Under the pieces are notes generated by a model that saw nothing but the letters and a program-made list of their open reading frames with translations, ran no database searches and was not told where the DNA came from. Of a stretch of DNA of 64,000 bases, positions 19,018 to 56,387 are shown piece after piece. How positions within the stretch are numbered: the first letter of the stretch is position 1; each line of letters starts with the position of its first letter. Origin of the DNA: Eledone cirrhosa (lineage: Eukaryota); the NCBI GenBank assembly GCA_964016885.1, contig OZ024747.1, forward strand, positions 64,852,001 through 64,916,000, given 5' to 3'. Both the position numbers and the translations under genes were made by a program.

Positions 19018-19369
19018 TCTCTCAATTTCAAACTTCTCTCGCCGTTTTCAAAACAAACCGCCTGCTTTGATTGATTGATACATACATACATACATACATA
19101 CATACATACATACATACATACATACAAATCATCAGTCTTTCTGGTGATTTCTCCCGAATGAAACAGTTCTAGTCCTGTAGAAGCCATTTCTATATTATAT
19201 ATATATATATATATATATGTATGTATGTATGTATGTATATATTGCTTCTGACATGACAATGAGATAGATTCCTTAATGATTCACAATAGTTAAAAGTGGT
19301 AAATTGGCATAAGCGTCAGACCGTCGAACAGAACACTGTTATTTTTACCCAATTTGTTCAACGTTCAAA

Positions 19370-19935
19370 TCACAAAGACATCGATGTTGTCTGGCGATTC
19401 AGCATATCAAAGGTAGGGTGGAAGGTGTAAAAACCAAACTCGCTATCTTTCACTCGGAGTCCATGCCTATCTTCCCTATGTTCATGAATATTGAGTAATG
19501 ACTGAACGAATGCGATCACGAATGCGATCACGAATACGAGCGGCTGATATGGGGTTCCTCTGAAGAATTTAGGAGTAACGTTACTCGATGGGCTGTGTGG
19601 TTCGGAAATCAGATGTTCGTCCCCAGTACAACCGTTACTCGGATTCAAGAGACCATCGCTCCGGTTCTACGGACATGTAGTTAGAAGGTGTAAGGAAAAT
19701 CTTTGGACAGATTTTACAAGCAAAGCCAACCGACGTGAGACCCAGAGATAGACCACGAACAAGATGGTTGGATAACACCCATGAGCTTCGTGGATCTTGC
19801 TTAGGTATCCAGTTGCATCATTTAGAGTGGGTTTGTTTAGATACGACTCTCTAGAAGGTGTTTCTGAGGACACTGCTCCAAATAGATTCCCAGGAATACG
19901 CGGGTGAAGAGGAAGAGAGGGATAGATGGACAGAT
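19370..19935 (+). mobile_element. Expander/Rex3-like RTE LINE 3' remnant
   Basis: Broken frames give VMTERMRSRIRAADMGFL, SLRFYGHVVR and RPRDRPRTRWLDN; ggatagatgg tail. Confidence 0.75.
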
Positions 19936-20828
19936 ATATTAGTATGAGTGACGTTGTGGCATATTAAACCCCAAAGAATCCATACCTCTCCTTGTAAAAC
20001 CACAGGCAATCGATTCCGAAAAGTAACAAAGAAAGAATTACATACGAGTTAACTCATAAATGTTGAGTGTATATCATTGCCAACCGCTAACACCTAGATT
20101 AGTGCTACGAAGAGAAGCCATTAAATATTAGCTTCCACAGTGGCTATATATCCCTGTATATTTTTTTCCATTGCGATGTTGAATGTAAATTCACCCTACC
20201 ATCAAAAGGAAAGACAAGTAAAGAGTTTAAATACAATATCCCTGATGATGAAAATCAATTCTAATCATAGACGTATATATGAATAGAATGATGTTGTAAT
20301 TAATTATGTCTAATATATTTTGTAATACTTTATTTTCAGAATATATATAGTAAATGTAGATAATAGTAGTTAATAATGTTTAAACAATAATGAATTTAAG
20401 TAACAAATACTTATACGACATAAGTCAGACACTACCTATTGTTATTTAAGAATCATTATATTTGCTCACTTATTTGTTGAAGGAAAAAAAATAATATCTA
20501 AAAAATAAATTTTAAAATTCCAAATTTTGGAAAATAAAAACAGACCGTAAGATATTTTTCAATCTACGAATGAAACAAGGAATGGGTATGATGGAAATGA
20601 AATTTCTTCCGCAAAACTTAAGTATTTCAAAATATTTGCTTTTCATTATATGACAGCAAGCTACATGTTTTAAAGTGAGTTTGGAACATAAGGTACACAC
20701 TTTAACGTTAACAGATTGAATAATGATGCCAAGATTAAATAATGTGAAACCTTGGGTTATTTAATGATTTCGGAAAACTCACCATCATTATAATAGGAAT
20801 GTTACTAAATGTCTACATGTAATTAAAA

Positions 20829-21041
20829 TTTGAAATAAAGTGAAATTTTATGTACCTATAAAGTGTTACATGGATTCAGAATGTGACAAATATTTCTATG
20901 TTCATGTATTTAAAGAGAGTTATAAATAATTAGTTATAACTCTCAGTAAATACATGAGCCTTCGTGTACATTTAGAAATATTTGTCACATTCTAAATCCA
21001 AGTAACACTTTATAGACATATGAAAGTTCACCTCATTTCAA
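20829..21041. repeat. Old, diverged ~210-bp palindrome
   Basis: ctataaagtgttac.tggatt.agaatgtgacaaatatttcta versus tagaaatatttgtcacattct.aatcca.gtaacactttatag. Confidence 0.8.
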
Positions 21042-23179
21042 ATACAAGTAAACATTTTTAAATACCAGAGCTTTTAGCAACATCTCAGCGTGTATATACT
21101 CGATGCTATTTGTATATACTCGATGTCTCATATCAAATATGAGTAACAGTTTTATTTAAATAGTGATAGTAATTCTGGTTTTTAGTAAGAAATGTATTGA
21201 AAAATATAATCTTTAAAAGTTCGTCTAAATATAGTGATATAAATGTCTTACCATTCTATTATAATTATAAGCAGTGGGGTTCTTTTGTGGCACTGAGAAG
21301 TAATGTGAGTCTCTTCCGATAATTGAATTTAATGTACGAAGATTCTGGTCCAACTCTTAATGACATGAAAGTCAGCAAGATAAATAGTTATCGAAAGATG
21401 CTCTCACAGAACAAAGACAGTTTAAATGAAGATAAATAGCGGCATAATTTAGTCTACTTTATGCAGACTGCACCGGAAACATACATAAAGACAACGAGAG
21501 TTCATATGCTATTTCTCATTTATAGCATTTTCAACGCTTAACGACATTTGACAAGGGGGTCAAGCGAAATGTATCAAATTTGAAAAAGAATGTCATTAAA
21601 TACTTCTACGTTTTTATAACAATCCTGACTAAATCTACCAAGTCAGCTTTGCTATAGCACTATGAATATAAATCTTCAAGTTCGTAGAAGTTAATACGTA
21701 GACACGTTATTTTTCTTATTATCTTTGTGAACTGAGAGATGTTTACATACATGACATATAAATACTTACAAACCACTTTATATATATATATATATATATA
21801 TATATATATATATATATATATATATATATATATAAATATATATATATATATATATATATATATATATATATATATAGAGAGAGAGAGAGAGAGAGAGAGA
21901 GAGAGAGAGAGAGAGGAGAGAGAGATGTATATATATATACGCATGAATATGGTGATGAAGATAACGGAATGCGTTGTTGAATCATTCCTATAGACGCGTT
22001 CGTCTTACAAATTTAATGAAAGGAGATTTATAGATTAGATAAATAAAAACGTGTTTACTTAATAGTAGATATAATATATCATTTGAATATATATTAAAGG
22101 TTTCAATTCAAGAAGACGTGCTAATGGGGATGAGATAATAATTGAAAGAACAAAAACACTGCTTACGATCAAAAGATACTGTCTAACTGGAAGGATATCG
22201 GGTTACTTTCATAATCTCTTTGGTCTCATCTAATATTTAGTTCAATAGAGACTAATTCAATAGCTGTAGTTTGATAACATAAAAATGAAAAAGACGTAGA
22301 TCACGATGTGAACTAATATATAGAGAGATAATAGCCGTGTATTTGCCTTCTGCAATCAATGCCTAACAACTTAACTCTTTTAATATCCCTTTATATTTCT
22401 CTATTGAATTCTTGTTATGTTCTTATAGTTTCTAGACACATGTATTTACGAAATATATTTCATACACTTACTTCTGACACTACTATTATCTATTTTATAT
22501 TTGAAAATGATAAACATGTCAGTTGCCGTACAATCCAATACATCATCATAGAAGCGCGCATTTACAGAAGAACACACATAATACACTTCTACTTTAATAC
22601 TATATATTTTACAATTCAACCGATAAGTAAAGTTACACGGCCTTGTTGATGGCGTGTGGTACGCATGATCATAATACTGTCTGTCTAATTCATGGACCGA
22701 GCTATGCATTGAATTCATGAGGGAAAATATTTTATTTAATGTTGCTCCAATCTATTCAGCTGAAAATGAATATCAAGAGCATATGAGGGTTACTGACTTG
22801 CTATTGACTTGCTTCCCGTCATGTGATGAGATATACGGCCAAATAGTTAACTTCAGTGAAACCGGGATACGCTCAGACCTTATGAACCTTTGGTCCTGAG
22901 ACAGACGTTATCCATATTTTTACATATTCAACGTGGTAAAAAGGGCAGTGGTCGTTCAATAATATATCTCATTACCATGTTGTATGTAAGTGAAAGTTCA
23001 CCTTAATTCAGTGCAATTATTCGTTAGTTAAATCTATGAGGTAATTTGCATTCCATCTTTGACATCTAACAAAACTCTAGTTAAATATATACCTCTGTCT
23101 CTGTTGACAGCCATAAAATGATAGCCCTCATATTACGGTATTCTTGCATTAAATGACGCCATGTATAACATATTTGGCG

Positions 23180-24045
23180 TCAATATAGGCCGCCTGTGAG
23201 ACGTACGACCGGCTGGGACTCGGCACAGTAGACGTCCCTCCTCCTTCTCCCCTGTTGACGCCAAGTCCCTCCAAAACACTTGGGATGCCATCCAGTGCAG
23301 CCTGGCCTCAGACAGGCTCACGCGCCAGCTCGACCAGGACCGCCTTGCCTGTTTTCGTGCGGCCTCCAAACCCCACAGTGGTGCCTGGCTCTATGCCCTG
23401 CCCTCCTTGTCCACTAGCACACAGCTAGACAATAATAGCTTGCGCATTGGCGTTTCCTTGAGGCTCGGCCTCCGGATCTGCGAGCCACACCAATGTCGCT
23501 CCGGATCCACCGTGGTCCCTTTCGGCCCCCATCCGCTTTCCTGTCGCCACAGTCCCAAACGCCTTCCACGCCATGCTGTCCTCAATGAGGTCATAAAGCA
23601 TGGCTTGGACGCTGCAGGCTTCCCTTCCCAGCTCGAAACGGTGGGGTTGGAACAAGGGGACGGCAAAAGGCCAGATGGCATGACAATCTTCCCGTTCCGC
23701 GGTGGTAAACCCCTCGTCTGGGATGCCACTTGCACCGACACTTTCTGCAGCCGCAACCTGGTGCAGTCTGCGACTGACTCAGGTTCCGCTGCACGTCAGG
23801 CTGAGGAGGCTAAACTCCTCAAATACCGGTCGCTCTCCGACAGGTTTGCGCTTGTACCCCTGGCAGTGGAGACTTCGTGTGTCCTTGGCTCTAGGGCTAC
23901 CTCCCTCCTCACTCATAACCATAGGCGCTGAGCTGGCCAGCCGCAGGTGTGAACGCCGCGAGTTGGAGTTGGAGCGTCTCTCTTGCTGTCCTCTGGGGAA
24001 ACACCTTCTCCATTCTGTCCGCCGGGGCTGTGGGGAGGGGGCCCA
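23180..24045 (+). mobile_element. CRE-like non-LTR retrotransposon 3' fragment (zinc knuckle plus PD-(D/E) restriction-like endonuclease)
   Basis: SGAWLYALPS, RIGVSLRLGL, H.C..G....G.H.LSC, RH..LN, DGKRPDGMT..P...GKPLVWDATC.DT, K..KY..L, VPLAVET. GC-rich relative to its flanks; frameshift near 23920. Confidence 0.85.
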
Positions 24046-55434: not shown

Positions 55435-55489
55435 ACTGCCTGAAGAGGTCACAGCCAAAGATGGCTGTCACCGAAATATATATAGCAGT
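55435..55489 (+). ncRNA. Type I hammerhead motif, intact core, in the ~300-bp repeat 55321-55628
   Basis: actgc CTGAAGA GGTcACAGCCA aaga TGGCTGTcACC GAAA tatata TA gcagt. Confidence 0.85.
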
Positions 55490-55744
55490 AATAAACGAAG
55501 CTAAATTTTAAACATTTGACTTTTTATTTTACTTTATTTTACATTACTCCGGAGTAACCAAACCAACCTGCGCACTTCGTCGAGTGCTCCAGCCTGCATA
55601 CTGAGGTGTTGGTATACAACCAAATTTACTAAAAAAAAAATATATATATAGGGAGAGAGGTATATATATATGTGTGTGTGTATATATATATATATATATA
55701 TATATATATATATATATATATATATATAATTGTGTAGGTGAGTA

Positions 55745-55925
55745 TAGATAGATAGATAGATAGATAGATAGATAGATAGATAGATAGATAGATAGATAGA
55801 TAGATAGATAGATAGATAGATAGATAGATAGATAGATAGATAGATAGATAGATAGATAGATAGATGGATAGATGGATAGATAGAAAGATAGATAGATAGA
55901 TAGAGAGATAGAGAGATAGATAGAC
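55745..55925. repeat. (GATA)n microsatellite
   Basis: Direct reading of the sequence. Confidence 0.98.
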
Positions 55926-56344
55926 AAACGCACTCACAAGCAATTGTCAGAGGACCCTACTTGACAGAGTAAGAACTGGAATGTGCAGTGAAAGAAGACG
56001 ATTCTTTTAAAATATCATAAATAAGAACGACCTCACCTCGTTAAAAGGTAAAAGTTATATTAGCTGAACCGAATATATATATATATAAGTATGTACACGT
56101 ACATACATATATGTATACAGACGTACAGTAGTATGTATATATATATACATACATGCACATATATATATATATATATATATATATATATATATATATATAT
56201 ATATATATATATATATATATATATATACGTATGGATTCACCGAAAATTTATTATAATGCTCGGTGTGTTTGTAAACAAACATCCCGTATTAAGCCGTCGT
56301 GTCCAGCAACCAACGTTGCTCGTTTGTTCAACACTGACAAAAGA

Positions 56345-56387
56345 ACGCTTTACTAGTTTCAAGCTTATTAGCTATCGTCAGCAACGT
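56345..56387 (-). ncRNA. Minimal hammerhead motif (family of 44327)
   Basis: Minus strand: acgttg CTGACGA t AGC taataa GCT t GAAA ctag TA aagcgt. Confidence 0.7.

What the first reader, a model, noticed from the sequence alone, without database searches (positions are those of the whole stretch)
19141..56387. Recurrent U10.1-U11.1 mismatch closing stem II in independent HHR families
Seen: CUGANGA-U-[stem]-U-GAAA at 32715 (TGC/GCA), 44327 and 56345 (AGC/GCT) and 55073 (CC/GG), and in degenerate form at 34700, 52570, 53540 (CCC/GGG) and 19141 (TTC/GAA). Established: the canonical pair is R10.1-Y11.1, usually G-C. Inference: repetition across unrelated stems points to a selected variant subclass rather than decay.
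Basis: partly seen in the sequence, partly recalled or inferred. Interest (0 to 1): 0.75.

Follow-up and report, generated by a model that had tools for sequence, protein, structure and literature searches.

The report
Recurrent U·U hammerheads in animal retroelements
Roughly 100,000 jumping-gene copies in this animal genome carry a hammerhead self-cutting RNA motif with a U·U mismatch where textbooks show a G-C pair; this variant is already published and is likely a working alternative that retroelement lineages switch to and from repeatedly.

Summary
U10.1·U11.1 is the family state (94-98 of the first 100 copies) in all five window families, each with 4,500-28,000 copies. It is the commonest 10.1/11.1 state in a 1-Mb sample (65 of 126 hits; 58 after dropping false and decayed hits).

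Four window families lie beside Penelope-like ORFs; one forms ORF-less tandem arrays (retrozyme-like). On ORF trees U·U is interleaved with G-C, G-U and A-U (4 changes; one clade rejected). It recurs in 7 of 42 ribozyme-bearing Penelope loci from metagenome contigs.

The 'degenerate' CCC copies are not decayed: CAGAAGA (U4A) is that young family's normal state.

The variant is in print: Perreault 2011, and an active 60,000-copy axolotl retrozyme (Cervera 2020). This scan also noted it in phages.

Best reading: a tolerated working state kept by selection, not a specialised subclass, since one retrozyme family spreads with A-U or U·U. Possibly new: its genome-wide dominance, its recurrence on the Penelope tree, and no C17 cut site in 13 U·U families (10 of 20 G-C families have one; confounded). 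Cleavage is untested here.

The parts
19137..19183 (+). Decayed copy (A6G) of the TTC/GAA family type I hammerhead; U10.1 19148, U11.1 19159; 4-bp stem III with 8-nt loop; N17 = A at 19179
   Evidence: family 27,969 copies, 98 of first 100 U·U; 543-550 nt 5' of the queried part of a 758-aa Penelope-like ORF in 8 of 20 loci
32715..32753 (+). TGC/GCA family type I hammerhead; U10.1 32727, U11.1 32738; palindromic stem III; N17 = U at 32748
   Evidence: 6,078 copies, 98 of 100 U·U; about 380 nt 3' of a GIY-YIG C-terminus in 7 of 9 copies
32604..32642 (-).
34604..34726 (-). 5'-truncated CCC/GGG family end; U10.1 34717, U11.1 34705; the CTGAAGA core sits at an inversion junction, stem I is incomplete
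44315..44387 (+). AGCT/AGCT family type I hammerhead with bipartite stem I; U10.1 44340, U11.1 44353; palindromic stem III; N17 = A at 44363; unit of an ORF-less tandem repeat of about 420-580 bp
   Evidence: Rfam HH9 E 8.5e-4; 26,739 copies, 97 of 100 U·U
52544..52682 (.). Inverted pair of CCC family hammerheads (52587-, 52637+), core CAGAAGA (U4A, the family state), 5-bp stem III; the + copy has a stem II and a stem III mutation
53490..53610 (.). Inverted pair of CCC family hammerheads; the + copy (core 53566) is family-typical, the - copy has GAAG in place of GAAA
   Evidence: family 23,389 copies, 97 of 100 U·U; about 940 nt 3' of the ORF in 30 of 33 endonuclease copies
55073..55110 (-). 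CC/GG family type I hammerhead, 2-bp stem II; U10.1 55099, U11.1 55089; palindromic stem III; N17 = U at 55077
   Evidence: 4,485 copies, 94 of 100 U·U; about 190 nt 3' of a GIY-YIG end in L105 and L089
56345..56387 (-). Second AGCT subfamily copy; U10.1 56374, U11.1 56361; one stem I mismatch

Best explanation
These are type I hammerhead motifs in the terminal repeats of Penelope-like retroelements and ORF-less tandem repeats, and their U10.1·U11.1 mismatch is the family state, likely a working alternative to G-C that lineages appear to have reached or left several times. Shown: the anatomy, the copy numbers, the links to ORFs and the interleaving on ORF trees. Inferred: the motifs cut element transcripts to unit length, as dimers where stem III is a short palindrome (TGC, CC, AGCT) and possibly as monomers where it is a 4-5 bp hairpin (TTC, CCC). 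Inferred: U·U stacks under the sheared A9·G12 pair as the least harmful mispair, so selection for cleavage keeps it while stem II turns over. Inferred route: C11.1, which precedes the invariant G12 in a CpG, mutates to U, giving G-U and then U·U or A-U.
For: Family state in 94-98 of 100 copies. Full descriptor: 126 hits per Mb against 2 in the reversed control, 65 U·U. U·U persists over at least 15 loop II sequences in the TTC family and in a 100/99-supported clade of three metagenome elements with different stems (L274, L268, L282). 13 of 15 mispaired families are U·U against 16% expected from base composition (6 of 8 if counted as origins, p 4e-4). The carriers are young: many near-identical copies with open 713- and 758-codon frames. 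In print: U·U was the best mispair in vitro (Perreault 2011 citing Ruffner 1990); axolotl HHR_Amex2 with U·U self-cleaved 22% in 1 h as a monomer against 6% for Amex1, and much better as a dimer. A-U and U·U forms of one retrozyme both amplify. CpG observed/expected is 0.65.
Against: No cleavage data for these sequences. The young CCC family also carries U4A, and CUGA-turn mutants had low activity in a published scan, so a weak or dead ribozyme may not stop spread. A Penelope hammerhead was dispensable for insertion in vitro and cut only with protein. Single-strand folds of the TTC and GCAT families did not favour stem II (P 0.01 and 0.06). On the own-genome trees the U·U label is no more clustered than shuffled labels (265 of 500), which fits lability but gives no direction. 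Several ORF links rest on one or two copies. The CpG route was not tested on a rooted series.
Confidence: 0.65

Rival explanations
1. U·U is a specialised second form of the catalytic core, coupled to a non-C nucleotide at the cut site (position 17) and positively favoured in these elements, for example to tune the rate or the dependence on dimers or protein.
For: C17 in 0 of 13 U·U families against 10 of 20 G-C families (Fisher p 0.002). Unreviewed notes of this scan report U·U with A17 in phages. U·U outnumbers G-C in copies.
Against: The test was post hoc and families are not independent. A17 alone is not enriched (7 of 13 against 5 of 20, p 0.14). The A-U families seen also lack C17, so the link may be with U11.1 or with shared CpG loss at 11.1 and 17. 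A-U and U·U spread side by side in one family.
Confidence: 0.18
2. U·U arose once or twice long ago and its scatter on the ORF tree comes from reversions to G-C or from exchange of terminal-repeat modules between elements.
For: Change counts are unrooted and cannot tell gain from loss. Three of six basal rows of the CxxC-linker clade are U·U, two of them with a similar TGCC/GGCA stem (L261, L265, L074). Nested and tandem insertions are common here.
Against: U·U occurs in two deeply separated ORF clades, in retrozymes, in axolotl and in at least one further published natural ribozyme. Reversion to G-C needs two changes, and only one G-U row lies on either tree.
Confidence: 0.1
3. The ribozymes are dead or irrelevant; U·U was fixed in a few founder copies by AT-biased mutation and amplified passively.
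For: AT-rich genome with CpG depletion. U4A fixed in a 23,000-copy young family. Hammerhead mutants did not affect insertion in vitro.
Against: The core, the stems and the C3-G8/U3-A8 swap stay intact across U·U families. Other mispairs are rare (2 of 15). A natural U·U retrozyme is active.
Confidence: 0.07

Closest known systems
Axolotl HHR_Amex2 in non-LTR retrozyme Rtz_353 (Cervera and de la Pena 2020, PMC7229834; section 15 read in full)
   Same: Type I hammerhead, U·U at the base of helix II, about 60,000 copies in tandem repeats, active and better as a dimer
   Different: One family in one species there; here eight families in one genome, five of them tied to Penelope-like ORFs, with stems II of 2-4 bp
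Natural U10.1-U11.1 hammerhead variant (Perreault et al. 2011, PMC3088659; section 8 read, supplement passages only)
   Same: Same mismatch at the same position; said to be the best mispair in vitro (Ruffner 1990, not seen)
   Different: Listed as a rare, surprising variation; here it is the majority state by copy number
Penelope-like element min-HHRs (Cervera and de la Pena 2014, PMC4209133; parts 1-2 of 4 of the text and part 2 of 3 of the supplement read)
   Same: Type I motif in terminal repeats, palindromic or tiny helix III, dimer model, U3-A8 covariation
   Different: Their consensus has an extra nucleotide after A9 and a highly conserved G10.1-C11.1; none of the alignment rows I saw has U·U. 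The U·U families lack the extra nucleotide; two have a real stem III
Short-stem III hammerheads of Penelope-like elements (Lunse, Weinberg, Breaker 2017; only the reference and a review's account seen)
   Same: Per the review: Penelope-associated type I motifs that cut as dimers
   Different: Unknown; the paper could not be read and may already report U·U

Membership tests
Type I hammerhead ribozyme | Core CUGANGA and GAAA with NUH triplet around a three-way junction | tested here: met
   Met for TGC, AGCT, CC and TTC families. The CCC family departs at U4 (A4 in 95 of 100)
Type I hammerhead ribozyme | Stems I, II and III with covariation, ends in stem I | tested here: met
   Stem I 4-6 bp, stem II 2-4 bp with all four Watson-Crick pairs at 10.2-11.2 across families, stem III palindrome or hairpin
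Type I hammerhead ribozyme | Purine10.1-pyrimidine11.1 pair (consensus feature with published exceptions) | tested here: not met
   U·U in 94-98 of 100 copies; exception known and active
Type I hammerhead ribozyme | Rfam gathering score | tested here: not met
   Best 22.4 bits against 52; no match at two other sites
Type I hammerhead ribozyme | Self-cleavage at position 17 | not testable with these tools
Penelope-like element terminal-repeat ribozyme | Fixed position beside an ORF with RT and C-terminal GIY-YIG endonuclease | tested here: met
   TGC 7 of 9, CCC 30 of 33, TTC 8 of 20 loci, CC 2 loci; GIY-YIG by Pfam PF01541 for the CxxC-linker elements, by sequence likeness for the others
Penelope-like element terminal-repeat ribozyme | Tandem and inverted truncated insertions next to microsatellites | tested here: met
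   Inverted pairs at 32482-32875, 52523-52701, 53489-53634, 55039-55219 beside (TA)n
min-HHR of Cervera 2014 | Extra nucleotide between A9 and a G10.1-C11.1 pair | tested here: not met
   The bulged register gives 0-2 pairs against 2-4 for the U·U register
Neptune / Nematis clades | Placement with named reference elements; CX2-5CxxC linker | tested here: inconclusive
   Cys linkers are present and Craig 2021 passages give them to both clades; no reference sequence was in my trees, so the clade names are recalled
Non-LTR retrozyme (AGCT and 310-bp families) | ORF-less tandem repeats with one type I hammerhead per unit | tested here: met
   Arrays of about 420-580 bp and 310 bp; no linked ORF found for AGCT
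Non-LTR retrozyme (AGCT and 310-bp families) | Circular RNA products | not testable with these tools
   No RNA data in hand

The most novel reading that the evidence does not exclude
The hammerhead core has a second stable form, U10.1·U11.1 with a non-C cut-site nucleotide, reached convergently by animal retroelements and phages; it is the majority hammerhead in this genome and is missed by descriptors that demand a pair at the base of stem II.
Probability: 0.2. Interest if true: 0.65.

Novelty: new member of a known kind. Interest (0 to 1): 0.4.

Why it matters
If active, about 100,000 ribozyme copies in one genome fall outside the usual descriptors and Rfam thresholds, so hammerhead counts in animals would be too low. 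The 310-bp family gives a natural pair of active-looking repeats that differ only at 10.1 (A-U against U·U), and close Penelope relatives carry G-C or U·U. Together these make the cost of losing G10.1-C11.1, and any coupling to position 17, directly testable. The variant itself is not new.

Tried and rejected
1. Naiad link: Craig 2021 reports Naiad 'HHR_core' motifs that miss descriptors. The U·U families that I could link lie beside ORFs with a C-terminal endonuclease, so this was dropped; Naiad sequences were not examined.
2. Extra-nucleotide register (U9a): rejected, fewer pairs.
3. AGCT family as partner of the L023 ORF: rejected, seen in 1 of 20 loci; that ORF goes with an A-U family.
4. 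U·U with A17 coupling from earlier notes: not supported here (7 of 13, p 0.14).
6. Metagenome scan with the CxC..CPL-type ORF alignment: 285 stretches, no relative, so cross-species data cover only the other clade and its outgroup.
7. Whole-window Rfam scan: swamped by microsatellite matches.
8. Papers not held: Lunse 2017, Nelson and Uhlenbeck 2008, Mir 2015. The role of G10.1 N7 in metal binding is therefore recalled only. The eLife pairwise scan gave no value for this pair in the passages seen.
9. Rows dropped: 7 of the 65 U·U hits are a satellite (3), misregistered (2), decayed (1) or doubtful (1). One search left out the 7 unlabelled rows, one duplicate family row and one short row. One search used 19 of the 80 metagenome loci plus 5 own-genome rows.
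Full report
Observation. A scan of both strands finds U-[stem]-U between the core halves at all eight cited sites, four of them on the minus strand, plus inverted partner copies at 32637 and 52637. The window holds 8 strict matches against a simulated mean of 0.08. The window lies in a 3.0-Gb, microsatellite-rich genome. The U..U pattern has 116,160 matches against 11,535 in the reversed control, and G..C has 42,817 against 8,857. Both patterns cover inner lengths of 8-22 nt only and do not test pairing. Rfam HH9 aligns to 44315-44387 with the two U's on its 10.1-11.1 pair, below threshold; two other sites gave no hammerhead match.

Family state. With 10.1 and 11.1 left free, the family patterns give: AGCT 26,739 copies, 97 of the first 100 U·U (the other three share C10.1); TTC 27,969, 98; CCC 23,389, 97; TGC 6,078, 98; CC 4,485, 94. 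All controls were 0. The listed 100 are the first on one contig and include tandem and inverted copies. The CCC copies called degenerate are family-typical: 95 of 100 read CAGAAGA, and the five CTGAAGA copies sit at inversion junctions, as at 34724.

The wider population. A full descriptor, neutral about 10.1/11.1, gave 126 hits in 100 evenly placed 10-kb stretches against 2 in the reversed control: U·U 65, G-C 30, A-U 18, G-U 4, others 9. 58 of the 65 belong to U·U families. Eight U·U families are seen in this genome: the five above, a 310-bp repeat, a family with the U3-A8 core swap, and a long-stem family. Families with G-C, A-U, G-U, U-A, A·A and A·G also exist. The 310-bp tandem family (18,312 copies) shows 66 U·U and 34 A-U among its first 100, in about 13 and 4 places, some identical apart from 10.1.

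What carries them. The TGC motif lies about 380 nt after a GIY-YIG C-terminus in 7 of 9 copies, the CCC motif about 940 nt after in 30 of 33, the U3-A8 family about 450 nt after in 12 of 17, and the CC motif about 190 nt after in two loci. The TTC motif lies just before a 758-codon open frame in 8 of 20 loci. The CCC and TTC elements have many near-identical copies with full open frames. Truncated inverted insertions beside (TA)n match the layout described for Penelope-like elements. The AGCT family forms ORF-less arrays, like non-LTR retrozymes. I recall the two ORF groups as Neptune-like and Nematis-like; no named reference was in the trees.

Independence. On a tree of 15 ORF-linked families the five U·U rows need 4 changes (3 forced by well-supported branches). 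One clade is rejected (p-AU 8e-34), as are the pair in one ORF group (9e-6) and the trio in the other (0.003) (one search gave 5 changes for 6 rows with a mixture model). Of 80 metagenome loci with related ORFs, 42 have a hammerhead-like hit; 7 carry U·U (5 distinct sequences), all among the closer relatives, while the outgroup mostly has the extra A plus G-C. On the joint tree of 24 rows U·U needs 4 changes and one clade is rejected (p-AU 1e-4); three elements with different stems II keep U·U in a 100/99 clade. These counts cannot tell gain from loss, and module exchange is not excluded. Several non-U·U links rest on single copies.

Selection. Of 15 mispaired families, 13 are U·U, against 16% expected from base composition; counted as origins, about 6 of 8 (p 4e-4; the origin count is my estimate from the trees). 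Loop II of the TTC family shows at least 15 sequences while U·U stays. This fits selection for cleavage with U·U as the allowed mispair. Against a special role: A-U and U·U spread alike. Against strong selection on activity: U4A in the CCC family, low activity of CUGA-turn mutants in a published scan (passages), and a Penelope hammerhead that was dispensable for insertion in vitro and needed protein to cut (passages). Single-strand folds support stem II for TGC, AGCT, CC and CCC (P 0.6-0.94) but not for TTC or the U3-A8 family (0.01, 0.06).

Mechanism. A9 and G12 form a sheared pair next to G10.1-C11.1 (passage of PMC11300833). U·U would stack there; that it loses the G10.1 N7 metal contact is recalled, not checked. 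Palindromic stems III point to dimer cleavage, and the 4-5 bp hairpins of TTC and CCC may allow monomers. C11.1-G12 is a CpG and the genome's CpG ratio is 0.65, which offers a route through G-U; this was not tested.

Position 17. Earlier unreviewed notes of this scan report U·U with A17 in phages. Here A17 is not enriched (7 of 13 against 5 of 20, p 0.14), but C17 is absent from 13 U·U families and present in 10 of 20 G-C families (p 0.002). The test is post hoc, the families are related, singletons are included, and the A-U families also lack C17, so shared CpG loss is a live confound.

Prior art. Perreault 2011 reports U10.1-U11.1 in nature and cites Ruffner 1990 for its being the best mispair (section read). 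Cervera 2020 reports about 60,000 axolotl copies with U·U, cleaving 22% in 1 h as a monomer and much better as a dimer (section read). Cervera 2014 describes Penelope hammerheads with conserved G-C, and I saw no U·U row in the part of its supplement that I read (one file could not be searched). Searches for U10.1/U11.1, for 'U-U mismatch' with stem II, and for Neptune with hammerhead showed no paper on genome-wide dominance or recurrence on the Penelope tree. The first three missed the axolotl case, so they are not exhaustive, and Lunse 2017 could not be read.

Verdict. The feature is real and heritable, a known working variant seen here at large scale and in several lineages. Interest 0.4; new member of a known kind.

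Noticed in passing
window 52587, 52637, 53566; L111-L140; L025:860(-), L219:4373(+): U4A (CAGAAGA) is the state of a young 23,000-copy family with open 713-codon frames; a second, unrelated G-C family also has CAGAAGA. Both have a real hairpin stem III.
   Followed up: partly
window 45405-45480 (-); L161, L095: Hammerhead family with an A10.1·G11.1 mismatch above a 9-bp stem II and a 10-bp stem I.
   Followed up: partly
L083:858(+), L080:1374(-): Hammerhead family with an A10.1·A11.1 mismatch, 4-bp stem II and C17.
   Followed up: no
window 49716-49776 (+), 43445-43505 (-): U10.1-A11.1 hammerhead family with a long stem II; the 43498 copy lies 240 nt before a GIY-YIG ORF fragment at 42693-43259 (-) (Pfam PF01541).
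   Followed up: partly
window 6629-6671 (-), 40657-40701 (-), 55435-55489 (+), 26161-26215 (-), 52218 (+) and 52065 (-): G-C and G-U hammerheads of other families; 6667 and 40696 have the extra nucleotide after A9.
   Followed up: partly
L041-L068, L087, L088: A U·U family with the U3-A8 core swap, about 450 nt after its endonuclease; its close relatives L072 and L090 carry G-C.
   Followed up: yes
window 730-4077 and 27690-29534: Copies of a LINE-like element with RT and endonuclease matches (PF00078, PF14529), about 93% alike.
   Followed up: no
window 12565-12982, 9633-9806, 35025-35216, 59243-59622: A dispersed repeat of about 200 bp, tandem at 12565 and inverted at 59243-59622, probably a SINE.
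   Followed up: no
L249-L260 region and other G000 loci: Penelope-like copies of different families are often nested or adjacent, which makes single ORF-ribozyme links unreliable.
   Followed up: partly
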